The notes under the pieces: model-generated
Seen by the model: the letters and a program-made list of their open reading frames with translations, nothing else
Databases searched by the model: none
What the model was told of the DNA's origin: nothing
Sequence record: MZ726791.1
Direction: 5' to 3' (one strand)
DNA length: 64,000 nucleotides
DNA from: Escherichia phage vB_EcoM_ASO1A
Shown: piece by piece, positions 1-8,228 of the stretch
How positions within the stretch are numbered: the stretch's first letter is position 1
Layout: every line of letters begins with the position of its first letter
Program-made: the position numbers and the translations under genes

Positions 1-206
1 ATAATTTTGCTGCAATAGAGAAACGAAGTAAACTCACTGGAAGAAACCATTAAGTGTTGTTCACTAGATTGAGCCATTGCCCTGAAATACATTCCAGTCA
101 AAGCATCATAGTGACTATTCTTTCCAATTGAGGTTATATAGCCATGACTCTTTGCAGTTTGATATAAATCTATAATATCTGCGATTTCTAATTGGGAACT
201 ACACAT
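1..206 (-). CDS. hypothetical protein, N-terminal part only (gene runs off window start)
   Basis: Minus-strand ATG near 206 preceded by AAGAGGA Shine-Dalgarno; open frame continues to position 1. Not in ORF track because truncated. Confidence 0.4.
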   Translation of the reverse strand, partial: MCSSQLEIADIIDLYQTAKSHGYITSIGKNSHYDALTGMYFRAMAQSSEQHLMVSSSEFTSFLYCSKI

Positions 207-447
207 AGATAATCCTCTTGTCTTCTGTAATTTTGAAAGAACAGGTACAGACCAATTTCAGAGGATGAATAGTAGATTAACTCTACCCTTTTTGATTCCT
301 TACAGTGATTGGTATTCTTACCTTTCTTCGGTTTATTTGATTTTCTCATTAAGTCTCCTTTGTAGAACAAGGCAGACCTACAGCTTTAAGTAAGATGGTA
401 CAGTAATCCATACAACAAGTCAAGAACTATTGCAAGTTAAAAAAGTT

Positions 448-476
448 GTTGACAAAGTACTTGACAAGGTGTAGGC
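448..476 (+). promoter_or_regulatory. sigma70-like promoter (TTGACA - 17 nt - TAGGCT) with conserved spacer CTTGACAAGGTG
   Basis: -35/-10 hexamers read directly; same spacer motif recurs near 41327 and 57066. Confidence 0.5.
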
Positions 477-598
477 TTATAAATACTTAGAAGATAACTT
501 AAAAGGTTCCTCTAAAAAGGCTATTTAAACAGATATCTTTCTGGATATCTATCTTTTATCTTAAAAGCCTTTTAAGAGGTCTTATAAGAGGCATACCA

Positions 599-970
599 AT
601 GAAAAACAGAACAAACAAAGGCCAGTTTAAAAAAGGCCAGTCTGGAAACCCATCTGGAAGACCAAAAGGCTCTCGTAACAAAAGCTCACTTGTAAAAGCT
701 CAACTGACCATTGATAATTCTGCTGAGTTTGCTGCAAAGTTGTTTGAGGCGGTTGTTACAAGGGATGCTGCTAAGCTTGCAGAGTTCGGTTTGACGACTG
801 ACGATGTAAACCTGAAGTCGATGATGGAGGCTGGTAAAACCATCATGACTCACTCAGCAGGTGAGATGAAAGCGATTGCAGCAGACACTAAGAAGACCCC
901 TGATAATGGTGGTCAGTCTCAGACAGATAACAAACCAACGTTCTCTGCTGTAGCGACTCTCAAAAAATAA
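599..970 (+). CDS. hypothetical basic protein with N-terminal GNPSGRPKG motif
   Basis: ATG start with AAGAGG SD; 123 aa ORF downstream of promoter. Confidence 0.6.
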   Translation: MKNRTNKGQFKKGQSGNPSGRPKGSRNKSSLVKAQLTIDNSAEFAAKLFEAVVTRDAAKLAEFGLTTDDVNLKSMMEAGKTIMTHSAGEMKAIAADTKKTPDNGGQSQTDNKPTFSAVATLKK

Positions 971-974
971 TTTT

Positions 975-1010
975 AAAAGGTGTTGACAGACTCTACAAAG
1001 TTGCTCTAAA
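975..1010 (+). promoter_or_regulatory. promoter (TTGACA ... TAAAGT) overlapped by ~10-bp inverted repeat TGACAGACT/AGTCTGTCA (operator-like)
   Basis: Hexamers and inverted repeat read directly; lies between two + strand genes. Confidence 0.45.
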
Positions 1011-1051
1011 GTCTGTCACATCAACAAACAAATGAGAGAAGAGAGTAAAAT

Positions 1052-2467
1052 ATGAGCGAATTATTTAAACATGCGCACCTTCATGCAGGTCGAACTGAAA
1101 ATGGTGCTGTAAACCATACTTCATCAATGTCTGCTCTTGTAGACTTTTACAAAGCTGCTGGTTCAAGCCGTAGCAACGTAGAAATCTTACCAGACCTGTT
1201 CTACAAAGCTTTGCGTGAGGATGTTGATGTTGCAGTTCGTATTTTGCTTCATATGCGAGATGTACGAGAAGGTATGGGTGAGCGTAAAGCCTTCAGAACT
1301 GTTTTACTTCAAGCGATTGAAGACAAAGTTTTAGAGCCTACGCAGGTTCTTCGCATTATGGATAAGATTGCAGAACTTGGTCGTTTTGATGACTTCAAAA
1401 TCTTCGTAGGTACTCGTTTCGAGACAGATGCCTTCAAACATCTAGAAGCAGCATTACTAGACCCTGCAACAGCAGGTTTGGCGGCTAAGTGGTTACCACG
1501 AGTCAAACCACGTCATAAGCAGTTTGTAAAACGTTTCTGCAAGTTTGCCAACTTGAGTGAGAAAGAGTACCGCACACTGTTGTCTGCACTATCTGATACA
1601 GTTGAGCAAAAAATCTCTGCTAATGAGTTTGGTAAGATTGACTACAGTAAGATTCCTTCACTTGCTGCTGCACGTTACCAAAAACTGTTTAACCGCAAAG
1701 ATGGAGAACGCTACAAAGCTTACATCGAGTCCTTATCAAAGGGTGAGACTAAGATTAATGCTGGTGCTGTTTACCCATACGATGTAATTAAATCTGTTAA
1801 GCATGGTAATGCAGATGTTGCTAATGAGCAGTGGAAAGCACTACCAAACTGGGTGGCAGAGGGTGAAAACATCTTGTGTATGTCTGATGTTTCAAGCTCA
1901 ATGTCTTGGGTGAATTTTGGTTCAATTACTGCTCTTGATATTGGTGTTTCACTTGCATTGTATGTAGCAGAACGTAATACAGGTTGCTTTAAGAATGAGT
2001 TGATGGTTTATTCAACAAACCCTCACTTCATCGAACTGAGTGGTGATTTACGAAACCGTCATCGTCAGGTGATGCGACACGTTGAATATGGCTCAACTAA
2101 CTTACAAGCAGCTTTTGACCGTATTCTTGAAACAGGTAAAAGAAACAACTTGACTCAGAAAGATATGCCAAGTAAGCTTATCATCTTCTCCGATATGGAG
2201 TTCAATCAGGTTGATGGAGCTAACGGTCGTACAAACTTTGAAGCAATTCGTAGTAAGTACAAAAAAGCTGGATACGAAATGCCTCAACTGGTATTCTGGT
2301 ACTTAGCAAACCGTAATGGTACTTGCGAAGTGTCTGTTAAGGATAACGGTGTAGCAATGGTATCTGGTTTTTCTCCAGCTACTTTAAAAGCTCTGCTTGG
2401 TGGTGAGAAGTTTGACCCAATCAGCGTAATGCTCAAAGCAGTAATGATTGACCGTTATATCTGGTAA
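1052..2467 (+). CDS. von Willebrand factor A (vWA) domain protein with helical N-terminal region (Ro60/DUF2828-like architecture?)
   Basis: 471 aa; MIDAS-like DVSSSM (DxSxS) motif in C-terminal half; GAGAGAAGAGAG SD before ATG. Confidence 0.75.
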   Translation: MSELFKHAHLHAGRTENGAVNHTSSMSALVDFYKAAGSSRSNVEILPDLFYKALREDVDVAVRILLHMRDVREGMGERKAFRTVLLQAIEDKVLEPTQVLRIMDKIAELGRFDDFKIFVGTRFETDAFKHLEAALLDPATAGLAAKWLPRVKPRHKQFVKRFCKFANLSEKEYRTLLSALSDTVEQKISANEFGKIDYSKIPSLAAARYQKLFNRKDGERYKAYIESLSKGETKINAGAVYPYDVIKSVKHGNADVANEQWKALPNWVAEGENILCMSDVSSSMSWVNFGSITALDIGVSLALYVAERNTGCFKNELMVYSTNPHFIELSGDLRNRHRQVMRHVEYGSTNLQAAFDRILETGKRNNLTQKDMPSKLIIFSDMEFNQVDGANGRTNFEAIRSKYKKAGYEMPQLVFWYLANRNGTCEVSVKDNGVAMVSGFSPATLKALLGGEKFDPISVMLKAVMIDRYIW

Positions 2468-2485
2468 AAAGTTTTAAAAAGGGTA

Positions 2486-2520
2486 TTGACAATGTGTTTG
2501 ATACCCTTTAATATGTTCTA
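2486..2520 (+). promoter_or_regulatory. sigma70-like promoter (TTGACA - 17 nt - TAATAT) within inverted repeat GGGTAT...ATACCC
   Basis: Read directly; upstream of tRNA array. Confidence 0.55.
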
Positions 2521-2576
2521 CATAGAAACGAAACGAGAGCTTTTCTAAGATACTGAAAAATATTTTAAAAAAGTTC

Positions 2577-2612
2577 TTGACAATCACTAAAAAATAATGT
2601 TAAAGTGGTTAC
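2577..2612 (+). promoter_or_regulatory. sigma70-like promoter (TTGACA ... TAAAGT) preceding first tRNA
   Basis: Read directly. Confidence 0.45.
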
Positions 2613-2632
2613 ATAGAGTTTGAAAAGTTTAT

Positions 2633-2709
2633 CTCTGTTTAGCTCAGCTTGGTAGAGCGTTCCGTTTGGGGCGGTAAGGCCGGAGGTTCAAGTCCTCCAA
2701 CAGAGACCA
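2633..2709 (+). tRNA. tRNA-Pro (anticodon TGG)
   Basis: Acceptor CTCTGTT/AACAGAG, D-arm GCTCAGCTTGGTAGAGC, T-arm GGAGG-TTCAAGT-CCTCC, CCA encoded. Confidence 0.7.
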
Positions 2710-2716
2710 AATTAAT

Positions 2717-2794
2717 GTTCCAGTAGACAAAATGGTAAAGTCACCACTCTTTCAAAGTGGATATCTGAGGGTTCAAATCCCTTCTGGAACGCCA
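2717..2794 (+). tRNA. tRNA-Glu (anticodon TTC)
   Basis: Acceptor GTTCCAG/CTGGAAC, anticodon stem CCACT/AGTGG loop CTTTCAA, T-arm GAGGG-TTCAAAT-CCCTT, CCA. Confidence 0.7.
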
Positions 2795-2884
2795 GTTTTG
2801 ACAGAAGACCAATTACAGCAAACTTAATCTACTCATCTGACACGAAATCGGACAAAGAAGATATTTGGTCTGGTCATTGAGAAT

Positions 2885-2961
2885 TGCGGGTATAGAGAAA
2901 GGGCGTCTCACATGTCTCATTAGCATGGTATCGGCAGGTTCGACTCCTGCACCCGCCTCCA
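2885..2961 (+). tRNA. tRNA-Met/fMet/Ile2 (anticodon CAT)
   Basis: Anticodon arm CATGT-CTCATTA-GCATG, T-arm GCAGG-TTCGACT-CCTGC, CCA; 1:72 pair mismatched. Confidence 0.6.
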
Positions 2962-3038
2962 ATTTTGCAGAAGACCGTATTCAGCAACAAAATACTTTTT
3001 GCGGATAAAAGAAAAAACACGGTCTGGCAATGTATTAA

Positions 3039-3115
3039 GGTTAGGAAGCACATAAGGTATGTGCGGTCGCCTGTTAAGCGAATGGCACAGGGTTCGAATC
3101 CCTGACTAACCGCCA
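3039..3115 (+). tRNA. tRNA-Asn (anticodon GTT)
   Basis: Acceptor GGTTAGG/ACTAACC, D-stem GCAC/GTGC, anticodon loop CTGTTAA, T-arm CAGGG-TTCGAAT-CCCTG, CCA. Confidence 0.7.
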
Positions 3116-3124
3116 AATTTAAAT

Positions 3125-3212
3125 GTGTCGTTATCCCGTAGATGGTAGCGGTGGGGACTGTAAATCCCTTGTCATTGAGACTCGGTAGGTTCGACTCCTA
3201 CACGGCACACCA
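3125..3212 (+). tRNA. tRNA-Tyr (anticodon GTA), type II with long variable arm
   Basis: Acceptor GTGTCGT/ACGGCAC, anticodon arm GGGGA-CTGTAAA-TCCCT, long variable arm, T-arm GTAGG-TTCGACT-CCTAC, CCA. Confidence 0.65.
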
Positions 3213-3217
3213 ATAAA

Positions 3218-3295
3218 GGTTATGTAGTTTAATTTGGTTAAAATACTCCCCTGTCACGGGAGATGATGAGGGTTCAAATCCCTTCGTAACCGCCA
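3218..3295 (+). tRNA. tRNA-Asp (anticodon GTC)
   Basis: Acceptor GGTTATG/CGTAACC, anticodon arm CTCCC-CTGTCAC-GGGAG, T-arm GAGGG-TTCAAAT-CCCTT, CCA. Confidence 0.65.
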
Positions 3296-3321
3296 ATTTT
3301 GAGAGGGCTATTTAGCCCCTC

Positions 3322-3354
3322 CCTTAAAGGGTTCTTACGAGTATCCTTTAAAGG
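3322..3354 (+). repeat. conserved hairpin element copy A (TTAAAGGG-TTCTTACGAG-TATCCTTTAAAGG)
   Basis: Imperfect palindrome with conserved loop; related copies near 4169, 6671 and 35415. Confidence 0.5.
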
Positions 3355-3356
3355 AG

Positions 3357-3429
3357 CAGAAGACCAAATACAGCAAGAACGTATGAAATTTCAAGCCAAT
3401 TTAATTTTGAAAATTTAAACTTGGTCTGG
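3357..3429 (+). repeat. inter-tRNA spacer unit CAGAAGACC ... GGTCTGG (copy 3 of 4)
   Basis: Same terminal motifs as units at 2802-2873, 2968-3027 and 3443-3574; ends are complementary (AGACC/GGTCT). Confidence 0.45.
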
Positions 3430-3495
3430 CTCAACAAATTTACAGAAGACCGTTTACAGCAAAACTTAAACAATCTATTTCTCCGGTAAAGAAAA

Positions 3496-3560
3496 GGCGA
3501 AGGTTCGATTCCTTCACTCGGCAGATGTCGAGTTGGTGTAATGGTAGCACTTAAGATGAT
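3496..3560 (+). ncRNA. tRNA-like fragments: T-arm hairpin (GAAGG-TTCGATT-CCTTC) + 7-bp acceptor-like hairpin (ACTCGGC/GTCGAGT) + D-arm-like GTGTAATGGTAGCAC; pseudo-tRNA or structured RNA
   Basis: Read directly; elements are in non-canonical order (3' half before 5' half), so no canonical cloverleaf. Confidence 0.3.
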
Positions 3561-3723
3561 AAACAACGGTCTGGTAATTATCTTTGTAGATAAGTTATTA
3601 AGCTTACCTGTGAGTATGCGACCACAAAGGGTGAAAGGGTAAATTCTAGATTTAAACCCAAAAAGGCACATCGCTACAGACCTTAAGCAAGTCTGGGTAG
3701 CTTATCTACAAAGATAATTTAAT

Positions 3724-3798
3724 GGAAGTGTAGCAGAATGGTGATGCGGCAGACTTTTAATCTGACAGGCGATGGGTTCGAATCCCTCCACTTCTACC
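3724..3798 (+). tRNA. tRNA-Lys (anticodon TTT)
   Basis: Acceptor GGAAGTG/CACTTCT, anticodon stem CAGA/TCTG loop CTTTTAA, T-loop TTCGAAT, CCA; T-stem has two weak pairs. Confidence 0.55.
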
Positions 3799-3804
3799 AA
3801 AAAT

Positions 3805-3881
3805 GGTTCAGTCGCAGATAAGGTAATGCAAGGGTTTCATAAGCCCTATGAATGTGGGTTCGATTCCCACCTGAACCTCCA
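3805..3881 (+). tRNA. tRNA-Met/Ile2/fMet (anticodon CAT), second CAT tRNA
   Basis: Acceptor GGTTCAG/CTGAACC, anticodon arm AGGGT-TTCATAA-GCCCT, T-arm GTGGG-TTCGATT-CCCAC, CCA. Confidence 0.65.
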
Positions 3882-3882
3882 A

Positions 3883-3958
3883 GCTGGTATAGTTAAGAAG
3901 GTTATAACACTCCCCTGATAAGGGAACATCGGTGGTTCGATTCCACCTACCAGTACCA
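3883..3958 (+). tRNA. tRNA-Ile (anticodon GAT)
   Basis: Acceptor GCTGGTA/TACCAGT, D-stem GTTA/TAAC, anticodon loop CTGATAA, T-arm GGTGG-TTCGATT-CCACC, CCA. Confidence 0.7.
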
Positions 3959-3973
3959 ATTTCAATAAAGTTG

Positions 3974-4002
3974 TTGACATTGAGATGTGACTACTTTATA
4001 GT
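3974..4002 (+). promoter_or_regulatory. strong sigma70-like promoter (TTGACA - 17 nt - TATAGT) inside tRNA array
   Basis: Read directly; followed by ~200 nt without tRNA or ORF. Confidence 0.6.
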
Positions 4003-4168
4003 AACCTTAGTTTTCGTTGCGTAGCGTCTATTTTGCAAATTTAAAATAAATGCAAACGACAATGTTTTTCTGGCAGTAGCTTGATAGGCTAAACACCAGT
4101 GAGGTCTTCCAATCCCTCATCAAAGAATTTGGCGTACTCGCCCACGGTATGATTAATAAGGTGGGCAT

Positions 4169-4199
4169 CTTTAAGGGCTTTCTAAGAGAGTCTTTAAAG
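4169..4199 (+). repeat. conserved hairpin element copy B (CTTTAAGGGCTTTCTAAGAGAGTCTTTAAAG)
   Basis: Shares AGGG-YTTTCTAAGAGAGTC core and palindromic TTAAAG flanks with copies A and C. Confidence 0.5.
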
Positions 4200-4206
4200 A
4201 TAATTA

Positions 4207-4288
4207 CGGGGCGTATCTCAGCGGTCTTCTAAACCGCCGTTAACCGAGTAAGTGGAGTATGCGGGTTCGAGTCCTGCCGCCTCGACCA
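4207..4288 (+). tRNA. atypical tRNA-like gene, anticodon TCT (Arg) with no canonical D-arm and an extended variable region
   Basis: Acceptor CGGGGCG/CGCCTCG, anticodon arm GCGGT-CTTCTAA-ACCGC, T-arm GCGGG-TTCGAGT-CCTGC, CCA; only 7 nt between acceptor and anticodon stem. Confidence 0.4.
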
Positions 4289-4431
4289 ATTTAGTTAGCA
4301 GATTACTTAGACGACCTAAGCGGGTCTTCCTGTAAGGAGGTGGTCTGTATCTCATGTTTTCCAGAACATGTAAATAATCTGAGAAGGGGCTTTACAGTGT
4401 TGCGAAAATACGGTAAGCTTCGAATTACAGT

Positions 4432-4514
4432 ATGGGACGATGTTAAGACTCTAAGGCATGAGCAACGGCCTCCAAAACCGTTTCAAAGGGGTTCAACTCC
4501 TCCGTCCCATGCCA
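4432..4514 (+). tRNA. tRNA-Trp (anticodon CCA), enlarged D region
   Basis: Acceptor ATGGGAC/GTCCCAT, anticodon stem ACGG/CCGT loop CTCCAAA, T-loop TTCAACT, CCA. Confidence 0.5.
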
Positions 4515-4527
4515 AAGTCTTATTAGG

Positions 4528-4615
4528 GGTAGGTAGCGGCTAATGGTAGCCAAACTGTATTGAAAACAGTTGCCACTGTAGAGATACGGTGAGGGTTCGA
4601 CTCCTTTACTTACCG
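4528..4615 (+). tRNA. tRNA-Ser (anticodon TGA), type II, 3' CCA not encoded
   Basis: Acceptor GGTAGGT/ACTTACC, 3-bp D-stem, anticodon arm ACTGT-ATTGAAA-ACAGT, long variable arm, T-loop TTCGACT. Confidence 0.55.
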
Positions 4616-4769
4616 CCTAATAAGATTTACACCGTCCATGCTTGCTCGCATTTTCGGTTTATCCCTCGTGTATTGTCGTACACTGATAAAGCACCTAGTA
4701 GGTGTCACGGAGAAGAGATAATATCAAGCTCTCCAAAGGTTCTAGTCACCGGATTAAACAAGACTATGC

Positions 4770-4795
4770 AAAGACCTATTTAGGTCTTTTTAGAG
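4770..4795 (+). terminator. rho-independent terminator-like hairpin (AGACCTA/TAGGTCT + T-run)
   Basis: Perfect 7-bp stem followed by TTTTT; ends a ~150 nt non-coding stretch after tRNA-Ser. Confidence 0.5.
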
Positions 4796-4871
4796 GGCTT
4801 CTAAGGTTATTAGTCGCTTGTTGTGGAACCTTGTTGCTCAGGTTCTTAGAAGTTCTCTAAAAAGATTTAAT

Positions 4872-4950
4872 GGGAGATTGACGGCAACTTGGTAGACCTA
4901 TCTCGCTTAGAACGAGATGCTTGAGGGTTCGAATCCCTTGTCTCCTACCA
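4872..4950 (+). tRNA. tRNA with Leu anticodon TAG, Leu-like D-arm but short variable arm
   Basis: Acceptor GGGAGAT/GTCTCCT, anticodon arm TCTCG-CTTAGAA-CGAGA, T-arm GAGGG-TTCGAAT-CCCTT, CCA; D-loop CAACTTGGTAGA. Confidence 0.5.
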
Positions 4951-4957
4951 AATTAAT

Positions 4958-5033
4958 GCAGGTGTAGCAAAATGGTTATGCGGCTGACTCTTAATCAGTA
5001 AGACGATGGGTTCAATTCCCTCCACCTGTACCA
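4958..5033 (+). tRNA. tRNA-Lys (anticodon CTT)
   Basis: Acceptor GCAGGTG/CACCTGT, anticodon stem GCTGA/TCAGT loop CTCTTAA, T-loop TTCAATT, CCA; paralogous to Lys(TTT). Confidence 0.6.
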
Positions 5034-5039
5034 GACATT

Positions 5040-5115
5040 GGGGATGTAGTTTACATGGTTAAAACATAAGTTTTGCAAACTTAAGTACAGGGTTCAATTC
5101 CATGCTTCTCCACCA
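5040..5115 (+). tRNA. tRNA-Ala (anticodon TGC)
   Basis: D-stem GTTT/AAAC, anticodon arm TAAGT-TTTGCAA-ACTTA, T-loop TTCAATT, CCA. Confidence 0.6.
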
Positions 5116-5121
5116 ATTAGT

Positions 5122-5196
5122 GCATCCATAGTTTAAACGGGAAAATTACAGTCTTCCAAACTGAGGTTGAGGGTTCGATTCCCTCTGGATGCTCCA
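5122..5196 (+). tRNA. tRNA-Gly (anticodon TCC)
   Basis: Acceptor GCATCCA/TGGATGC, anticodon stem CAGT/ACTG loop CTTCCAA, T-arm GAGGG-TTCGATT-CCCTC, CCA. Confidence 0.65.
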
Positions 5197-5203
5197 AATT
5201 AAT

Positions 5204-5279
5204 GCTCCTATCGTATAATTGGCTATTACGGTTGCCTTGTAAGCAACTTATCAGGGTTCGAATCCTTGTGGGAGCACCA
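5204..5279 (+). tRNA. tRNA-Thr (anticodon TGT)
   Basis: Acceptor GCTCCTA/TGGGAGC, anticodon arm GTTGC-CTTGTAA-GCAAC, T-arm CAGGG-TTCGAAT-CCTTG, CCA. Confidence 0.7.
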
Positions 5280-5282
5280 ATT

Positions 5283-5372
5283 CAGAGGTCAAGTGAAAGA
5301 CCGCTGGTGTCAACTGAAGACCGTAACAAATTCCACGGAGTTGAGTTAGCGGCACAACTTCAGACCTCTTTC
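5283..5372 (+). ncRNA. candidate structured spacer RNA (long-range stem CAGAGGTC ... GACCTCTG enclosing internal hairpins)
   Basis: Complementary 8-mers ~80 nt apart between tRNA-Thr and tRNA-Val; no ORF, no tRNA fold. Confidence 0.25.
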
Positions 5373-5374
5373 AT

Positions 5375-5449
5375 GCTCGCTTAGTTTATATGGTAAAACA
5401 TCACCCTTACAAGATGAAGAAAAAGGTTCAAGTCCTTTAGTGAGTACCA
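5375..5449 (+). tRNA. tRNA-Val (anticodon TAC)
   Basis: Acceptor GCTCGCT/AGTGAGT, D-stem GTTT/AAAC, anticodon loop CTTACAA, T-arm AAAGG-TTCAAGT-CCTTT, CCA. Confidence 0.65.
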
Positions 5450-5450
5450 T

Positions 5451-5528
5451 GTTCCAGTATCCCAATTGGCAGAGGATGCAAGCTCAAACCTTGTATTAGT
5501 GACGGTTCGAATCCGTCTTGGAACACCA
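5451..5528 (+). tRNA. tRNA with Leu anticodon CAA, short variable arm
   Basis: Acceptor GTTCCAG/TTGGAAC, D-loop CAATTGGCAGA, anticodon stem GCAAG/CTTGT loop CTCAAAC, T-arm GACGG-TTCGAAT-CCGTC, CCA. Confidence 0.5.
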
Positions 5529-5533
5529 ATTTT

Positions 5534-5609
5534 GCAGGATTAGTTCAAATGGATAGAGCAACAGTCTACGAAGCTGTTAATAGGGGTTCGAATCCCTTAT
5601 CCTGCGCCA
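5534..5609 (+). tRNA. tRNA-Arg (anticodon ACG)
   Basis: Acceptor GCAGGAT/ATCCTGC, D-arm GTTC-AAATGGATA-GAGC, anticodon arm ACAGT-CTACGAA-GCTGT, T-arm AGGGG-TTCGAAT-CCCTT, CCA. Confidence 0.7.
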
Positions 5610-5626
5610 GATAAAAAGGTGATACT

Positions 5627-5869
5627 ATGCAAACATTAACAGTAGTTGAACATGAAAACTGTGAGAATATTGAGTTTGTCAGGGTCATTGGTGTTGAACA
5701 CCACATTTTCTTAAAAGTAGGGTACTTATGTGACCCCGCTAGAGTAGAAAGATTTATACGTGATTGTTTTGGTGGTAGACAGCTAAAGAGTGTTATTTTT
5801 GAGACAGTTTTACCAGAAGGTTTAGAAACGAATAATAACATTTATCTCCTTACAAGGATTAGACGATGA
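5627..5869 (+). CDS. hypothetical small protein embedded in tRNA array
   Basis: 80 aa ORF; AAGGTGA SD 7 nt upstream of ATG; directly follows tRNA-Arg. Confidence 0.4.
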   Translation: MQTLTVVEHENCENIEFVRVIGVEHHIFLKVGYLCDPARVERFIRDCFGGRQLKSVIFETVLPEGLETNNNIYLLTRIRR

Positions 5870-6423
5870 GATATTTAAAATATGCTTCATGGATTTTCCT
5901 AGCTTTGCTAGAACCATTAGCAGCAACCTTAGCAGTTATCTTAGCACCTTTCGTAGTTCCATTTTACAGTGAGAAGAAAGGCCACTTACCTTTCGGATTT
6001 AGATGGATGGAGACATATGACAACCCAATTGATGGTGACGAAGGTCATATCGAACGATGGGCTAAGATTAGAAAGATTGGTAAGCTGGGTGTCTACATGC
6101 AGAGAGTCGGATGGCTCTGGAGAAACAAAGCTTATAACTTCTCTTACCATGTATTAGGAAGAGATGTAAAAGATGTTACTAAGTGGAAAGGTAATATCAA
6201 CGTAAGTTCTGACCCTGAAGATAATCAGACAGGTTATCTCCTAATGTGGAACAGTAATGCTTGGGGATTATTCGCTTTTATCCCATCAATTAAAGTCTTT
6301 GGTAAACAATTTTACTGGAGAATTTATATTGGGTGGAAGCTAAAAAGTGTTGTCCCAGAAGAAAGAGCATTCTCAAGGGAAAGAGTTATGTTGGCATTCT
6401 TTATTCATCCACTAAGAAAGTAA
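5866..6423 (+). CDS. hypothetical membrane protein (N-terminal hydrophobic segment, Trp-rich)
   Basis: 185 aa; ATG with AAGGA SD; start overlaps upstream ORF stop (ATGA). Confidence 0.55.
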   Translation: MRYLKYASWIFLALLEPLAATLAVILAPFVVPFYSEKKGHLPFGFRWMETYDNPIDGDEGHIERWAKIRKIGKLGVYMQRVGWLWRNKAYNFSYHVLGRDVKDVTKWKGNINVSSDPEDNQTGYLLMWNSNAWGLFAFIPSIKVFGKQFYWRIYIGWKLKSVVPEERAFSRERVMLAFFIHPLRK

Positions 6424-6431
6424 AGATTTAA

Positions 6432-6507
6432 AGGGGATTAGTTTACAAGGTTAAAACCTCGGTCTTTGAAATCGAAGAAGTTGGTTCAATTCCAACATCC
6501 CCCGCCA
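6432..6507 (+). tRNA. tRNA-Gln (anticodon TTG)
   Basis: D-stem GTTT/AAAC, anticodon arm TCGGT-CTTTGAA-ATCGA, T-arm GTTGG-TTCAATT-CCAAC, CCA; 1:72 mismatch. Confidence 0.6.
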
Positions 6508-6509
6508 AT

Positions 6510-6588
6510 GCTCCATTACTCCAATTGGCAGAGAGGCCAGACTTAAAATCTGTGTTATGTATCGGTTCGAATCCGATATGGAGTACCA
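6510..6588 (+). tRNA. tRNA with Leu anticodon TAA, short variable arm
   Basis: Acceptor GCTCCAT/ATGGAGT, D-loop AATTGGCAGA, anticodon stem CAGA/TCTG loop CTTAAAA, T-arm ATCGG-TTCGAAT-CCGAT, CCA. Confidence 0.5.
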
Positions 6589-6593
6589 AATTT

Positions 6594-6669
6594 AGCGGTA
6601 TAGCATAACTGGCAATGCAACAGTCTCTGAAGCTGTCCTATTAAGGTTCAAATCCTTATGCCGCTGCCA
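6594..6669 (+). tRNA. tRNA-Gln (anticodon CTG)
   Basis: Acceptor AGCGGTA/TGCCGCT, anticodon arm ACAGT-CTCTGAA-GCTGT, T-arm TAAGG-TTCAAAT-CCTTA, CCA. Confidence 0.65.
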
Positions 6670-6670
6670 C

Positions 6671-6701
6671 TTCTAAGGGTTCTTACGAGAGTCCTTAAAT
6701 G
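6671..6701 (+). repeat. conserved hairpin element copy C (TTCTAAGGGTTCTTACGAGAGTCCTTAAATG)
   Basis: Near-identical loop (GGGTTCTTACGAG) to copy A. Confidence 0.5.
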
Positions 6702-6776
6702 TGGCCTTATCATAAATGGTAATGACCCATGCTGTGAACATGGTCTATACGGGTTCAAATCCCGTAGGTCACCCCA
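6701..6776 (+). tRNA. tRNA-His (anticodon GTG)
   Basis: Acceptor GTGGCCT/AGGTCAC, D-stem TCAT/ATGA, anticodon arm CCATG-CTGTGAA-CATGG, T-arm ACGGG-TTCAAAT-CCCGT, CCA; no encoded G-1. Confidence 0.7.
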
Positions 6777-6781
6777 ATTTA

Positions 6782-6858
6782 TAGTCCAAGTAGCTTATAT
6801 GGTTAAAGCGCGTGTCTGAAAAACATGAGAAGAGGGTTCAAATCCCACTGGACTACCA
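6782..6858 (+). tRNA. tRNA-Phe (anticodon GAA), 3' CCA not fully encoded
   Basis: Acceptor TAGTCCA/TGGACTA, D-stem GCTT/AAGC, anticodon arm CGTGT-CTGAAAA-ACATG, T-loop TTCAAAT; odd 8-9 spacing. Confidence 0.55.
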
Positions 6859-6874
6859 ATTTCAAAGGTGCTTA

Positions 6875-7609
6875 ATGAAAGAGATGACAGAACAAGGTAA
6901 GGAGATTTTTAATCTCTTAAAAACCGGTAAAGGGTTTTCTAACCCACTTATTACTGGTGCAGCAGTTCTCGGTGGAACCGTAGCTGCCTCTACATCACTT
7001 GTAAGCTCTATTAGTTCTGTAACAGACCCTACAATGCAGGAGAAACTTGTTGCTGCTGGACTTACAACAGTCCTTCTAAACAGCTTTACAACAAGCCTTA
7101 CAAGCACTACAGCAACTACTAAGACCCTGACAGACTACGGTCAAAAGTCTATTGATGAGTTTTCATCACGTATGCAGGTAGCAAAGGGATATTCCAATGT
7201 TATGAGTGCAGCAGGAGAACAAGTTGGTTGTACACCGTTCAGTGGTATTATGGGTGTTGCTACAGAATATGGTCAAAAAGCTATTGATACAATTAACAGT
7301 ACACTAGAGAGTGTTAACGATGTATTAAGTGACTTACAAGACGCTATTGATGAGGGTCTTGATACTATTTCTGATTTAGCTAATCAGGCTGTTAGTAAGA
7401 TTAATGAAGGTATTTCAAAGATTACAGCTTATGCAGATGAAGTTGTGCAGATGATTGAAGAAGAAGCTGCCCTTATTGCAGAGTACCTTAAAACGAATAT
7501 CAATGGGTTCTTAGCAGGTATCTTACCAGACTGGTTTGACGATGCCTGTAAAACTGGTGTAATTGACACTATTGCAACACCAGAAATGAAGAACGCATTA
7601 CAGAAATAA
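6875..7609 (+). CDS. hypothetical protein (Ala/Ser/Thr-rich N-terminal half, acidic helical C-terminal half)
   Basis: Track ORF 6812-7609 trimmed to in-frame ATG (Met22) with AAAGGTG SD, because the first 45 nt overlap tRNA-Phe. Confidence 0.55.
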   Translation: MKEMTEQGKEIFNLLKTGKGFSNPLITGAAVLGGTVAASTSLVSSISSVTDPTMQEKLVAAGLTTVLLNSFTTSLTSTTATTKTLTDYGQKSIDEFSSRMQVAKGYSNVMSAAGEQVGCTPFSGIMGVATEYGQKAIDTINSTLESVNDVLSDLQDAIDEGLDTISDLANQAVSKINEGISKITAYADEVVQMIEEEAALIAEYLKTNINGFLAGILPDWFDDACKTGVIDTIATPEMKNALQK

Positions 7610-7611
7610 AT

Positions 7612-7704
7612 GGAAGATTAACCCTAAAAGGTAAGGGAGCAGTTTGCTAAACTGCCAGTAGCTGAGAAATCGGTGTACCAGTTCAAGTCTGGTATCTTCC
7701 TCCA
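7612..7704 (+). tRNA. tRNA-Ser (anticodon GCT), type II
   Basis: Acceptor GGAAGAT/ATCTTCC, anticodon arm GCAGT-TTGCTAA-ACTGC, long variable arm, T-arm ACCAG-TTCAAGT-CTGGT, CCA. Confidence 0.7.
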
Positions 7705-7708
7705 ATTT

Positions 7709-7784
7709 GAATCCGTGACAGAAATGGCTATGTGCCTGTCTGCAAAACAGGTTTATAAGGGTTCGAGTCCCTTCGGATTCTCCA
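7709..7784 (+). tRNA. tRNA-Cys (anticodon GCA)
   Basis: Acceptor GAATCCG/CGGATTC, anticodon arm CCTGT-CTGCAAA-ACAGG, T-arm AAGGG-TTCGAGT-CCCTT, CCA. Confidence 0.7.
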
Positions 7785-7821
7785 AGTTATTTTACTCTCT
7801 CTCAATTAAAATAATAATAAT

Positions 7822-7881
7822 GCCCTGCTATAAGTATTCTTCCTTTCGCTACCGAAGAGTATTTTTAGACAGGGCTTTTTT
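7822..7881 (+). terminator. rho-independent terminator ending the tRNA array (GCCCTG ... CAGGGC + T6)
   Basis: Long hairpin followed by TTTTTT immediately after last tRNA. Confidence 0.6.
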
Positions 7882-7946
7882 ACAGAGTTATACTTTATAA
7901 GAAGGCTTATACAGTATGTCTCTGACGTACATTGTGGTTTCTCCTT

Positions 7947-7970
7947 GACGGTCTCTGTGCCGTCTTTTTT
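7947..7970 (+). terminator. second terminator hairpin (GACGG ... CCGTC + T6)
   Basis: Read directly. Confidence 0.5.
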
Positions 7971-8006
7971 AAGGAGAAACATGGTTAATTATTTGGAGAA
8001 AACATA

Positions 8007-8207
8007 ATGAGTGAGACCGTTTATAAAGAACTTTATGAAGCTAACAAAAAGCTAGAATTTATGCAGAATACTATCATGGCAATTGCAGACAGATTGTCTG
8101 TAGCAACAGGTATTGATATTAAAGAAGCATCTATGGATGCACTTCTTGATGCTGTTGATGCAAAGTTCGAAGTTAAGAAAGAAGAGACTGCTACAGACTC
8201 TGAATAA
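8007..8207 (+). CDS. hypothetical small acidic protein (terminase small subunit not excluded)
   Basis: 66 aa, GGAGAAAAC SD; first gene of morphogenesis operon, just upstream of terminase large subunit. Confidence 0.5.
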   Translation: MSETVYKELYEANKKLEFMQNTIMAIADRLSVATGIDIKEASMDALLDAVDAKFEVKKEETATDSE

Positions 8208-8228
8208 TTCTATTTGCGGAGGTGCTTA

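What the first reader, a model, noticed from the sequence alone, without database searches (positions are those of the whole stretch)
1052..2467. vWA (MIDAS) protein with helical N-terminal domain immediately upstream of the tRNA array: Ro60-like RNP candidate
The 471-aa protein has a C-terminal vWA fold signature (hydrophobic strand then DVSSSM, a DxSxS MIDAS motif) after a ~250-aa helical region, the domain order of Ro60/Rsr (TROVE + vWA). Rsr genes in bacteria and phages are often next to Y RNAs that mimic tRNAs. This gene sits beside a tRNA array that contains tRNA-like fragments and structured non-tRNA spacers (3443-3720, 3996-4206, 4619-4870).
Basis: inference. Interest (0 to 1): 0.6.

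Follow-up and report, generated by a model that had tools for sequence, protein, structure and literature searches.

The report
Phage Ro60-like protein with partner RNAs
A Felix O1-type phage gene encodes a protein with the fold of the RNA-quality-control protein Ro60, and across hundreds of phages it travels with a previously undescribed small RNA family that resembles bacterial Y RNAs and the enigmatic Class I RNAs of social amoebae.

Summary
ORF 1052-2467 (+) encodes a 471-aa protein with a helical N-terminal half and a C-terminal vWA domain carrying an invariant MIDAS motif. The window is a Felixounavirus, and the gene is wV8 gp47 (Pfam DUF2828 + DUF7788).

The main new result is an RNA element. 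It has a 7-bp terminal stem starting (A/U)G, then NU(A/U)CAGCAA, a variable insert, the stem complement, then G. It lies on the gene's strand beside DUF2828 genes in about 60 of 76 viral loci, and also in an independent set of 80 bacterial-assembly loci. All 7 stem pairs covary.

The window has four copies in the tRNA array: E1-E3 (short) and E4 (long). E4 contains a T-arm, a closed acceptor-like hairpin and a D-arm, which is the YrlA Y-RNA layout. The short forms match Dictyostelium Class I RNAs in motif, ends, stem and size.

Physical binding and function remain inferred.

The parts
983..1012 (+). sigma-70-like promoter candidate (TTGACA-N18-TAAAGT) 40 nt upstream of the ORF
   Evidence: 10 of 12 consensus positions. 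The number of promoter-like sites in the region as a whole is not above chance, so this is weak evidence.
1052..2467 (+). gene for a 471-aa Ro60-fold protein (DUF2828 + DUF7788; wV8 gp47 homolog; phrog_850 'RNA-binding protein')
1052..1843 (+). N-terminal all-helical (TROVE-like alpha-solenoid) half, residues 1-264. Invariant basic and aromatic positions include R40, R69, R72, R78, R111, K146, W147 and R150.
1871..2416 (+). vWA domain (DUF7788), residues 274-455, with MIDAS residues D279/S281/S283 (window 1886-1900), T349 and D381
   Evidence: hhalign to the Ro60 vWA, 89% probability, E=2.3e-6, MIDAS motifs in register
2486..2606 (+). two tandem sigma-70-like promoter candidates (2486-2514 and 2577-2606) within a 91-nt direct repeat, heading the tRNA/small-RNA array
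   Evidence: (repeat family D11)
2806..2872 (+). small-RNA element E1 (short form): AGACCAA-UUA-CAGCAA...UUGGUCU-G, between tRNA-Glu and tRNA-Met
   Evidence: leave-out model R2, 33.2 bits, E=2e-5
2972..3026 (+). small-RNA element E2 (short form): AGACCGU-AUU-CAGCAA...ACGGUCU-G, between tRNA-Met and tRNA-Asn
   Evidence: R2, 35.7 bits, E=5e-6; weak Rfam Dicty_Class_I_RNA hit
3361..3428 (+). small-RNA element E3 (short form): AGACCAA-AUA-CAGCAA...UUGGUCU-G
   Evidence: R2, 19.9 bits, E=0.037
3447..3573 (+). small-RNA element E4 (long, YrlA-like form). The closing stem AGACCGU/ACGGUCU and UUACAGCAA enclose a hairpin, a T-arm (3499-3515), a closed acceptor-like hairpin (3516-3533) and a D-arm-like hairpin (3535-3551).
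   Evidence: partial Rfam tRNA match covering the T-arm and 3' acceptor strand
2633..7784 (+). array of 25 tRNA genes, co-oriented with the gene, in which E1-E4 are embedded with tRNA-like spacing

Best explanation
The gene encodes a Ro60-like RNA-binding protein. An N-terminal alpha-helical TROVE-type solenoid is closed by a C-terminal vWA domain with a complete metal-binding MIDAS site. The protein belongs to a separate sequence family (DUF2828/DUF7788) that is widespread in large phages and giant viruses.

I propose that it works as a ribonucleoprotein with co-encoded small RNAs. In this phage these are four RNAs (E1-E4), transcribed and processed as part of the adjacent tRNA array. Each has a 7-bp terminal stem that starts A-U, G-C. 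A single-stranded UUACAGCAA motif follows the 5' strand, and a conserved G follows the 3' strand.

This invariant module is the likely protein-binding site, playing the role of the Ro-binding stem of Y RNAs. The variable module is an A-rich loop in E1-E3 and a circularly permuted tRNA-like domain in E4. By analogy with YrlA, it would recruit or mimic other factors, such as tRNA-handling enzymes or host exoribonucleases like PNPase.

The likely biological role is handling of structured RNA during infection. That could mean surveillance or protection of phage tRNAs and other small RNAs, or modulation of host RNA decay.

Shown here: the fold, the family's distribution, the existence, structure and covariation of the RNA family, and its tight co-oriented linkage to the gene. 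Inferred: direct binding, which part of the RNA is bound, and the physiological function.
For: Protein:
- AlphaFold model: pLDDT 90.6, pTM 0.89.
- All top Foldseek PDB hits are Ro60/TROVE structures.
- hhalign against a 24-sequence Ro60 profile: 89% probability, E=2.3e-6, over the last TROVE helix and the vWA domain, with MIDAS motifs in register.
- The MIDAS residues and many basic residues are invariant.
- In the viral structure library, annotated TROVE and Ro-like phage proteins rank immediately after the DUF2828/DUF7788 family members.

RNA family:
- The motif occurs 4 times in the window against 0.22 expected.
- The descriptor finds 82 plus-strand hits in 56 of 76 loci, against 4 on the minus strand and 0-6 per shuffle. 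Of the 82, 55 lie within 500 nt of the gene.
- Covariance model R1: 81 of 84 hits are on the gene strand.
- Stem: 98.6% of cells paired in 63 distinct sequences. All 7 pairs show compensatory changes. There are 154 doubly-changed cells against 46 in shuffles (0 of 500 reach that). Slid-register controls pair at 27-48%.
- C, G, C and the 3' G are invariant in 63 of 63 sequences.

Linkage to the gene:
- The element is present in loci with no tRNAs, about 30 nt after the stop codon.
- In 80 independent bacterial-assembly loci, 82 of 84 hits are on the gene strand, mostly within 400 nt upstream.
- In a gene-blind scan of the viral collection, 86 of 124 motif matches have the complementary strand, with 27 stem variants. 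Of 42 with adequate flanks, 23 have the gene in the stretch, all 23 co-oriented.
- No protein-coding neighbour recurs in more than 14 of 76 loci.
- The leave-out model R2 finds E1-E3 as the only significant hits in the 64-kb window.

Y-RNA analogy:
- The long forms fold as T-arm, closed acceptor hairpin, D-arm on the basal stem. That is the order Chen et al. 2014 describe for YrlA (PMC4201824).
- Two long forms in L071 hit Rfam YrlA at E=4.7e-5 and 0.044.
- A true phage Ro60 with adjacent Y-like RNAs that binds and attenuates host PNPase is documented (PMC12135203).
Against: - There is no sequence-level similarity to TROVE in the N-terminal half. Common descent of that half with Ro60 rests on a predicted structure only.
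- I could not inspect the model's coordinates, so a closed ring with a central cavity is not verified.
- The conserved RNA motif (CAGCAA) differs from the Ro-binding motifs of known Y RNAs (GNCGAA(N0-1)G and GGUCCGA). The one GGCGAAG in E4 lies in the T-arm and is not conserved even among Felixounaviruses (GGAGAAG in L003).
- No window element reaches any Rfam Y-RNA model. The YrlA hits elsewhere are below the gathering score, and none appeared in five other long-form loci.
- About 20 of 76 viral loci show no element.
- Many copies lie inside tRNA arrays away from the gene. The RNA could therefore belong functionally to the tRNA system rather than to the protein.
- There are no expression, end-mapping or binding data.
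Confidence: 0.6

Rival explanations
1. The RNA elements are components of phage tRNA arrays in their own right. They could be processing punctuation, RNase P, RNase E or CCA-enzyme decoys, or tRNA-derived stable RNAs. On this view the protein does not bind them. The co-location reflects clustering of small-RNA genes and a shared early transcription unit. The protein would act on other substrates such as tRNA precursors or damaged tRNAs.
For: - In the window the elements sit between tRNAs with tRNA-like 10-13-nt spacing.
- 13 of 19 'orphan' copies lie inside arrays of 13-28 tRNAs, 4-8 nt from a tRNA.
- Some elements enclose a complete tRNA (L043 5734-5833).
- About half of the loci have tRNA or tmRNA genes within 6 kb, always co-oriented.
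Against: - Eleven or more loci with no tRNA within 6 kb carry the element 27-35 nt or about 415 nt after the stop codon.
- In Firmicutes-type loci it lies directly upstream of the gene, in tandem copies.
- 23 of 42 gene-blind hits have the gene in the same short stretch.
- The T4 tRNA cluster, which has no DUF2828 gene, has none.
Confidence: 0.2
2. The element is a cis-acting regulatory or stabilising structure of the DUF2828 mRNA, such as a leader, a 3' UTR or an autoregulatory operator, rather than a separate small RNA.
For: It often lies within 30-110 nt of the start codon or about 30 nt after the stop codon, always on the same strand.
Against: - It can be upstream or downstream depending on lineage.
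- It occurs in 2-5 tandem copies (L071, L096, L123).
- In the window it is 339-980 nt downstream, beyond two promoter-like sites and several tRNAs.
- It can contain a whole tRNA-like domain.
- The matching Dictyostelium Class I RNAs are abundant, free 42-65-nt RNAs (PMC7919456).
Confidence: 0.1
3. The protein is a generic vWA/MIDAS adaptor, for example a MoxR-type co-chaperone or an assembly factor. On this view its resemblance to Ro60 has no functional meaning.
For: - vWA domains are widespread protein-interaction modules.
- Only the vWA half is linked to Ro60 by sequence.
- DnaJ and ClpP genes are neighbours in 8-11 loci.
Against: - Full-length structural matches are specific to Ro60.
- No AAA+/MoxR partner or any other conserved protein neighbour was found.
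- The most persistent neighbours are RNAs.
Confidence: 0.05
4. The repeats act at the DNA level, as recombination or cassette sites (attC-like folded single strands) or as a phage-specific promoter, and not as RNA.
For: They are inverted repeats 30-190 bp apart that flank small genes and tRNAs, with an asymmetric conserved core. Some overlap -35-like hexamers (E1 begins just after TTGACA).
Against: - The strict co-orientation with transcription and with the gene (81:3 and 82:2) is unexpected for DNA sites.
- G-U-tolerant covariation is seen.
- tRNA-like modules are nested inside the elements.
- The near-identical Dictyostelium elements are expressed RNAs.
Confidence: 0.03

Closest known systems
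Ro60 / Rsr with Y RNAs (TROVE + vWA; bacterial rsr-yrlA loci; Thermus phage phiLo Ro60 with Yrl1/Yrl2)
   Same: - The domain order and predicted fold match: a helical solenoid plus a vWA domain with MIDAS.
- The small-RNA genes lie within a few hundred nt on the same strand.
- The RNAs have a terminal stem carrying an invariant motif plus a variable module.
- The long forms have the T-arm / closed acceptor stem-loop / D-arm order of YrlA.
   Different: - It is a different Pfam family (PF11443 + PF25043, against PF05731 + PF25045).
- The N-terminal half shows no detectable sequence similarity to TROVE.
- The conserved RNA motif is UUACAGCAA, single-stranded and next to a 7-bp stem. It is not GNCGAA(N0-1)G or GGUCCGA.
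- There is no rtcB/rtcA RNA-repair neighbourhood.
- The RNAs are frequently embedded in tRNA arrays.
Dictyostelium Class I RNAs (Rfam RF01414)
   Same: - Similar length (about 55-65 nt) and AT-rich composition.
- A terminal stem whose sequence covaries.
- Start (A)AG and end CUG(U).
- The motif CCUUACAGCAA directly 3' of the 5' stem strand. The 11-mer is identical in elements such as L016 and L123, and 9 of 11 positions match in the window's E1 and E4.
- An A-rich segment before the 3' strand, and multiple copies per genome.
- RF01414 is the best-scoring non-tRNA Rfam family over these elements in three separate scans.
   Different: - Scores are below Rfam's gathering threshold (24-28.9 bits against 41.5).
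- The stem-to-motif spacing differs by one nucleotide, and the stem is 7 bp rather than 6 bp.
- These are phage-encoded and lack the DUSE promoter.
- The only known direct binder in Dictyostelium is the RRM protein Rnp1A/CIBP.
- Class I RNAs were reported as unique to Dictyostelia (PMC7919456).
- Whether dictyostelids have a DUF2828 protein was not testable here.
YrlA (Rfam RF02553)
   Same: It has a tRNA-like domain on a basal stem and is encoded next to a Ro-fold protein gene. Two phage long forms hit the model at E=4.7e-5 and 0.044.
   Different: All scores are below the gathering score of 69 bits. Window E4 gives no YrlA hit. The basal-stem motif is different.
Stable RNAs of the T4 tRNA cluster (rnaC and rnaD, species 1 and 2)
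   Same: They are small non-tRNA RNAs of unknown function encoded and processed within a phage tRNA gene cluster.
   Different: Neither covariance model matches them, and T4 has no DUF2828 gene at that locus.

Membership tests
Pfam DUF2828 (PF11443) + DUF7788 (PF25043) | Scores above the curated Pfam gathering thresholds | tested here: met
   103.5 bits (cut-off 29) and 148 bits (cut-off 27.1). phrog_850 matches full-length at E=1.6e-183.
Ro60 / TROVE protein family | Match to the Pfam TROVE model (PF05731), or sequence similarity to solved Ro60 chains | tested here: not met
   No TROVE hit at E<=1. No Ro60 hit in PDB sequence searches with the single sequence or the profile. True Ro60/Rsr proteins carry PF05731 + PF25045.
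Ro60 / TROVE protein family | Fold: a helical (HEAT-like) solenoid joined to a vWA domain, over the full length | tested here: met
Ro60 / TROVE protein family | A closed ring with a positively charged central cavity for RNA 3' ends | not testable with these tools
   The model's coordinates and electrostatics cannot be inspected. Only the invariant basic residues are known.
Ro60 / TROVE protein family | vWA domain with a MIDAS motif homologous to that of Ro60 | tested here: met
   hhalign A1 against A3: 89% probability, E=2.3e-6, residues 235-452 aligned to Ro60 316-537. DVSxSM, the conserved T and the (S/T)D motifs are in register. These residues are invariant.
Ro60 / TROVE protein family | Physical association with Y RNA | not testable with these tools
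   This needs RIP, CLIP or EMSA experiments.
Y RNA, YrlA type (RF02553; Chen et al. 2014) | Encoded within 4 kb of the Ro-type gene on the same strand | tested here: met
   E1-E4 lie 339-980 nt downstream on the same strand. Across the family, 55 of 82 copies lie within 500 nt.
Y RNA, YrlA type (RF02553; Chen et al. 2014) | tRNA-like domain with T arm, acceptor-like stem-loop and D arm, in that order | tested here: met
   This holds for the long forms only: window E4, L054 and two elements in L071 (MFE folds). The order is as described. It rests on energy-based folding, not on covariation within the domain.
Y RNA, YrlA type (RF02553; Chen et al. 2014) | GNCGAA(N0-1)G Ro-binding motif near the 5' end | tested here: not met
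   The conserved 5' motif is NU(A/U)CAGCAA. E4's GGCGAAG lies in the T-arm and changes to GGAGAAG in L003.
Y RNA, YrlA type (RF02553; Chen et al. 2014) | Rfam gathering score (69 bits) | tested here: not met
   The best score is 38.9 bits, in L071. There is no hit for window E4 or in five other loci.
Dictyostelium Class I RNA (RF01414) | About 60 nt, a short terminal stem with covariation, 5' (A)AG and 3' CUG(U) | tested here: met
   Short forms are 46-71 nt. The stem is 7 bp with all pairs covarying. The second stem pair is G-C in 62 of 63 sequences, and the 3' G is present in 63 of 63. Compared.
Dictyostelium Class I RNA (RF01414) | Conserved 11-nt motif (CCUUACAGCAA) adjacent to the 5' stem strand | tested here: met
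   UUACAGCAA or UUUCAGCAA is present in nearly all copies. The exact 11-mer occurs in the L010-L028, L108 and L123 elements. The spacing to the stem differs by 1 nt.
Dictyostelium Class I RNA (RF01414) | Rfam gathering score (41.5 bits) | tested here: not met
   28.9 bits for L016, 24 bits for window E2, and no hits at gathering in 11 loci.
Dictyostelium Class I RNA (RF01414) | DUSE promoter about 60 nt upstream; dictyostelid host | tested here: not met
   These are phage and bacterial sequences, and DUSE is a eukaryotic promoter element.

The most novel reading that the evidence does not exclude
DUF2828/DUF7788 proteins and Class I-type small RNAs form one ancient, horizontally mobile ribonucleoprotein, a sister system to Ro60-Y RNA. 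It would be shared by phages, giant viruses of protists and dictyostelid amoebae, and possibly plants, which also have DUF2828 genes. On this reading Class I RNAs are not unique to Dictyostelia. Their long-sought core partner is a Ro60-fold protein, and the phage long forms show that this system independently couples its protein-binding module to a tRNA mimic, as YrlA does.
Probability: 0.35. Interest if true: 0.92.

Novelty: new variant of a known kind. Interest (0 to 1): 0.85.

Why it matters
- Ro60-Y RNA particles are a conserved but still poorly understood RNA-surveillance system. This would be a second, sequence-unrelated protein family with the same fold and its own dedicated RNA family. 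It would show that the ring-protein-plus-tethering-RNA design is more general than thought.
- The system is common in large phages, which gives a genetically simple place to study it.
- It assigns a testable function to a large domain-of-unknown-function family found in phages, giant viruses and plants.
- It identifies unannotated RNA genes inside phage tRNA arrays.
- It offers a concrete protein candidate and an evolutionary origin for Dictyostelium Class I RNAs. Their mechanism has been open since 2004, and they were thought to be restricted to that lineage.
- For phage biology, it points to RNA quality control or host RNase modulation as a partner function of phage tRNA arsenals.

Tried and rejected
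- Sequence searches for Ro60: Pfam TROVE, NCBIfam, and PDB searches with the single sequence and with the profile all found nothing. Only profile-profile comparison and structure comparison link the protein to Ro60.
- Rfam Y RNA and YrlA in the window: no hit at E<=1 over 1-9000, or at E<=10 over E4.
By eye, the only instance is in E4's T-arm and it is not conserved.
- Conserved protein neighbours, such as RtcB or another RNA ligase, PNK or MoxR: none. The most frequent neighbour cluster is found in 14 of 76 loci.
- A YrlA signal in five other long-form loci: none at E<=1.
- T4 rnaC and rnaD as members: rejected.
- The AlphaFold-database fold search, meant to find cellular and dictyostelid homologs, was unavailable.
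- Avesson et al. 2011, which lists the four Class I RNA-associated proteins, is not held. The supplements of Kjellin et al. contain no DUF2828, TROVE or vWA terms.
- Literature searches for DUF2828, for the RNA motif and for phage Ro-like systems found no prior description of this RNA family or of the pairing.
- I first passed over the weak RF01414 hit as noise. It became meaningful only after the family consensus was known.
Full report
**What the window is, and the observation.** The first 9 kb of the window are 99% identical to Escherichia phage vB_EcoM_ASO1B and 96% identical to phage wV8, so this is a Felixounavirus. ORF 1052-2467 (+) is real and encodes 471 aa. It corresponds to wV8 gp47, which RefSeq names 'RNA-binding protein'; other records call it 'DUF2828 family protein' or 'vWFA protein'. 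Pfam assigns DUF2828 (PF11443) and DUF7788 (PF25043), and PHROGs assigns phrog_850, labelled 'RNA-binding protein'. The DVSSSM motif is at residues 279-284. D279, S281, S283, T349 and D381, which together make a complete MIDAS site, are invariant in a 63-sequence alignment spanning 41-89% identity. A 25-tRNA array starts 166 nt after the stop codon.

**The protein has a Ro60 fold but belongs to a separate family.** Sequence methods do not connect it to Ro60. There is no Pfam TROVE hit, no NCBIfam hit and no PDB hit with either the single sequence or the profile. An AlphaFold2 model built on the family alignment is confident (pLDDT 90.6, pTM 0.89).

For a sequence-level test I retrieved verified Ro60 sequences from the PDB library and added bacterial Rsr homologs. 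Profile-profile comparison gives 89% probability (E=2.3e-6). It covers only residues 235-452, aligned to Ro60 316-537, which is the last TROVE helix and the vWA domain with the MIDAS motifs in register. Genuine Ro60/Rsr proteins carry PF05731 + PF25045.

In a library of viral structures, the nearest neighbours (TM 0.8-0.88) are DUF2828/DUF7788 proteins of phages and of giant viruses: Pithovirus, Marseillevirus, Mimiviridae and CroV. Annotated TROVE and 'Ro-like RNA binding' phage proteins follow. The literature records DUF2828 genes in plants and in mimivirus-like sequences. In short, the fold is Ro60-like and the vWA half is homologous by sequence, but the family is distinct.

**Genomic context.** I fetched 80 viral loci encoding relatives. 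Outside the Felix group, about half have tRNA or tmRNA genes within 6 kb and about 20 have one within 1 kb. Every tRNA and tmRNA found is on the gene's strand. No protein-coding neighbour recurs in more than 14 of 76 loci. Small RNA genes are therefore the persistent neighbours of this gene.

**A conserved small-RNA element.** While reading the window's spacers I noticed AGAAGACCnnnUnCAGCAA four times, all on the + strand within the tRNA array, against 0.22 expected by chance. Each copy is followed 30-100 nt later by the complement of the 7 nt that precede the motif. The complementary pairs differ between paralogs in a compensatory way (ACCAA/UUGGU against ACCGU/ACGGU).

L007 is a phage whose protein is 47% identical. 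It has the same design with unrelated stems: AGAGCAC/GUGCUCU, AGAGCAG/CUGCUCU and AGGACAC/GUGUCCU.

I then ran a simple descriptor: a 7-nt stem with G at position 2, a 3-nt linker, CAGCAA, 15-200 nt, then a perfect complement. It finds 82 plus-strand hits in 56 of 76 non-redundant loci. The minus strand gives 4, and dinucleotide shuffles give 0-6. Of the 82 hits, 55 lie within 500 nt of the gene. Eleven loci without any tRNA carry the element about 30 nt or about 415 nt after the stop codon.

Covariance model R1, built from 32 short forms, gives 84 hits at E<=1. Of these, 81 are on the gene strand, and the 3 minus-strand hits all have E>0.29. In the 68 hits at E<=0.02 (63 distinct sequences), the stem is paired in 98.6% of cells and all seven pairs show compensatory double changes. 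There are 154 doubly-changed cells against 46 in shuffles (0 of 500 reach that). Register-shifted controls pair in only 27-48% of cells.

The conserved positions are U of the linker (58 of 63), C (63), A (58), G (63), C (63), A (62 of 62), A (57 of 61), and the G immediately 3' of the stem (63 of 63). The second stem pair is G-C in 62 of 63 sequences. The segment before the 3' strand is A-rich.

**Independent tests of the RNA-gene link.**
- *Bacterial assemblies.* Eighty DUF2828 loci from bacterial genome assemblies (33-42% identity; Clostridia, Bacteroidales, Chloroflexi and others) were not used for the model. They give 84 R1 hits, 82 on the gene strand, mostly within 400 nt upstream of the start codon and often in tandem.
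- *Gene-blind scan.* I scanned the whole viral collection for AGGNTNNTTACAGCAAAC without reference to the gene. It returned 124 matches, and 86 have the complementary 3' strand, with 27 different stems. Of 42 with at least 2 kb on both sides, 23 have a DUF2828 gene in the stretch, and all 23 are co-oriented. Thirteen of the 19 'orphans' lie inside tRNA arrays, 4-8 nt from the next tRNA in many cases. Some are on contigs already known to carry the gene elsewhere.
- *Leave-out model.* Model R2 contains no window or L007 sequences. It recovers window E2 (35.7 bits, E=5e-6), E1 (33.2 bits, E=2e-5) and E3 (19.9 bits, E=0.037) as the only significant hits on either strand of the 64-kb window. It also finds three copies in L007.
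- *Negative control.* The T4 tRNA cluster, with no DUF2828 gene nearby, has no hit, and its classic stable RNAs rnaC and rnaD are not members.

**Short and long forms.** E1 (2806-2872), E2 (2972-3026) and E3 (3361-3428) are short forms. They have a terminal stem, an unpaired UUACAGCAA, and a small variable hairpin or an open A-rich loop.

E4 (3447-3573) is a long form. Inside the closing stem, the minimum-energy fold has the following, in order:
- a hairpin;
- a T-arm (GAAGG-UUCGAUU-CCUUC, 3499-3515);
- a 7-bp hairpin (ACUCGGC-AGAU-GUCGAGU, 3516-3533);
- a D-arm-like hairpin (3535-3551).

The same order recurs in long forms from unrelated lineages (L054 and two elements in L071). There the middle hairpin's loop carries the CCA, so the 3' and 5' acceptor strands are joined. 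One D-arm is canonical (AGCUCAGUCUGGUAGAGC). This is a circularly permuted tRNA whose anticodon arm is replaced by the conserved closing stem.

That is the architecture Chen et al. (2014) describe for YrlA Y RNAs encoded next to Ro60. [quoted passage not shown] They warn that tandem tRNAs can mimic this pattern. The warning does not apply here, because the two acceptor strands are mutually complementary and the unit is enclosed by the closing stem.

Two L071 long forms hit Rfam YrlA at E=4.7e-5 and 0.044, below the gathering score. Window E4 and five other loci do not. Chen et al. searched only genomes with annotated TROVE proteins, so DUF2828 phages were outside their survey.

**Resemblance to Dictyostelium Class I RNAs.** Among non-tRNA Rfam families, the best match over these elements is RF01414, Dicty_Class_I_RNA. 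Its consensus is GaUcuC-CUUACAGCAA-...-GagAuC-UG. The element from L016 aligns to that model end to end at 28.9 bits, E=4.5e-4, against a gathering score of 41.5.

Kjellin et al. (2021) define Class I RNAs by the following features:
- a length of about 60 nt and 32-41% GC;
- a short terminal stem whose sequence covaries;
- start AAG and end CUGU;
- an 11-nt motif next to the 5' stem strand;
- an otherwise variable sequence.

They conclude that the class is unique to Dictyostelia, with the RRM protein Rnp1A/CIBP as the one known direct binder (PMC7919456). Their curated D. discoideum sequences read GUUGAC-CUUACAGCAA...A-rich...GUCAAC-UG. Phage elements read A-GGUUCC-UUACAGCAA...A-rich...GGAACC-U-G.

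The motif, the terminal G-C pair, the CUG end, the A-rich 3' segment, the size and the multicopy nature all agree. The stem-to-motif spacing differs by one nucleotide. Homology or convergence on a related binding protein therefore remains open.

**Interpretation.** The best-supported reading is a Ro60-like ribonucleoprotein. A Ro60-fold protein travels with a dedicated small-RNA family. The invariant module of that RNA (the stem base, UUACAGCAA and the 3' G) has the hallmarks of a protein-binding site. Its variable module is sometimes a tRNA mimic. The one studied phage Ro60 binds adjacent Y-like RNAs and host PNPase and slows RNA decay (PMC12135203), which gives a precedent for function.

What is shown: the fold (from a predicted model), the RNA family and its structure, and the linkage between gene and RNA. 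What is inferred: direct binding, the binding site, and the role in infection. Candidate roles include tRNA or small-RNA surveillance and modulation of host RNases.

The main rival is that the RNAs belong to the tRNA system and only share a neighbourhood with the gene. This is weakened by the tRNA-less loci and the gene-blind scan, but not excluded.

**Novelty.** The gene family and its 'RNA-binding' label already exist in databases. Within the literature I could search, I found no description of the Ro60 fold of DUF2828 proteins, of this RNA family, of the pairing, or of Class I-like RNAs outside Dictyostelia. I rate it a new variant of a known kind (a Ro60-Y RNA-type RNP) with a potentially far-reaching link to Class I RNAs.

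Noticed in passing
window 3996-4285 (+): A tmRNA-like stretch. A strong promoter-like site (TTGACA-N17-TATAGT, 3974-4002) is followed by a tag-like reading frame, GCA AAC GAC AAT GTT TTT CTG GCA GTA GCT TGA = ANDNVFLAVA* (4052-4084). There are weak Rfam tmRNA hits (RF00023, E=0.003). A tRNA-like element follows at 4207-4285 (Rfam tRNA 31.7 bits, not called by ARAGORN). Its acceptor stem CGGGGCG/CGCCUCG has a G-U at the third pair and it ends in ACCA. The order (tag region, then a complete tRNA-like domain) fits neither standard nor known permuted tmRNA genes.
   Followed up: partly
L032 1317-1767, L036 11822-12176, L040 12119-12479, L045 12694-13067, L055 12356-12709: Several distant DUF2828 phages carry tmRNA genes 3-5 kb from the gene on the same strand, with tags ending ...ELAVA or ...FALAA. 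DnaJ and ClpP genes are neighbours in 11 and 8 loci respectively. This lineage is also the one in which I did not find the small-RNA element.
   Followed up: partly
window 3576-3719, 4165-4203, 4780-4870 (+): Long, nearly perfect hairpins: a 22-bp stem with a 100-nt insert, a stem of about 16 bp, and a 26-bp stem with a 39-nt insert. They share CUUUAAAG- and AAAGAU-like sequence, and each ends 2-5 nt before the next tRNA or tRNA-like gene. They may be RNase III-type processing sites of the array transcript. They do not contain the CAGCAA element.
   Followed up: partly
L043 5734-5833; L095 3025-3134: In some phages the Class I-like closing stem and CAGCAA motif enclose a complete, normally ordered tRNA. 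In L043 this is tRNA-Thr, 52.9 bits against the Rfam tRNA model. So the module can be fused to a real tRNA as well as to a permuted one.
   Followed up: no
window 3348-3671 (-) and L001 6422-6679 (-): The ORF annotated as wV8 gp48 (hypothetical protein, minus strand) overlaps element E4 and the adjacent hairpin domain on the opposite strand. It is probably not a real gene. Several other small 'hypothetical' ORFs annotated inside the tRNA array overlap tRNAs in the same way.
   Followed up: no
window 2466-2606 (+): A 91-nt tandem duplication (2466-2493 and 2557-2584) carries two near-consensus promoter-like sites between the gene's stop codon and the first tRNA. A 12-bp hairpin (2478-2509) overlaps the first site.
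   Followed up: no
window 4434-4508 (+): A degenerate tRNA-like sequence (weak tRNA-Sec-like Rfam hit, E=0.64), annotated as a tRNA-OTHER pseudogene in wV8. In wV8 an HNH homing endonuclease gene is inserted just downstream, and it is absent from this window.
   Followed up: no
L282 (T4 70908-71171): T4's stable RNAs rnaC and rnaD in its tRNA cluster are not members of the new RNA family. rnaC ends with a T-arm-like GGGUUCGAAUCCC, so T4 also has tRNA-derived non-tRNA RNAs of a different design.
   Followed up: partly
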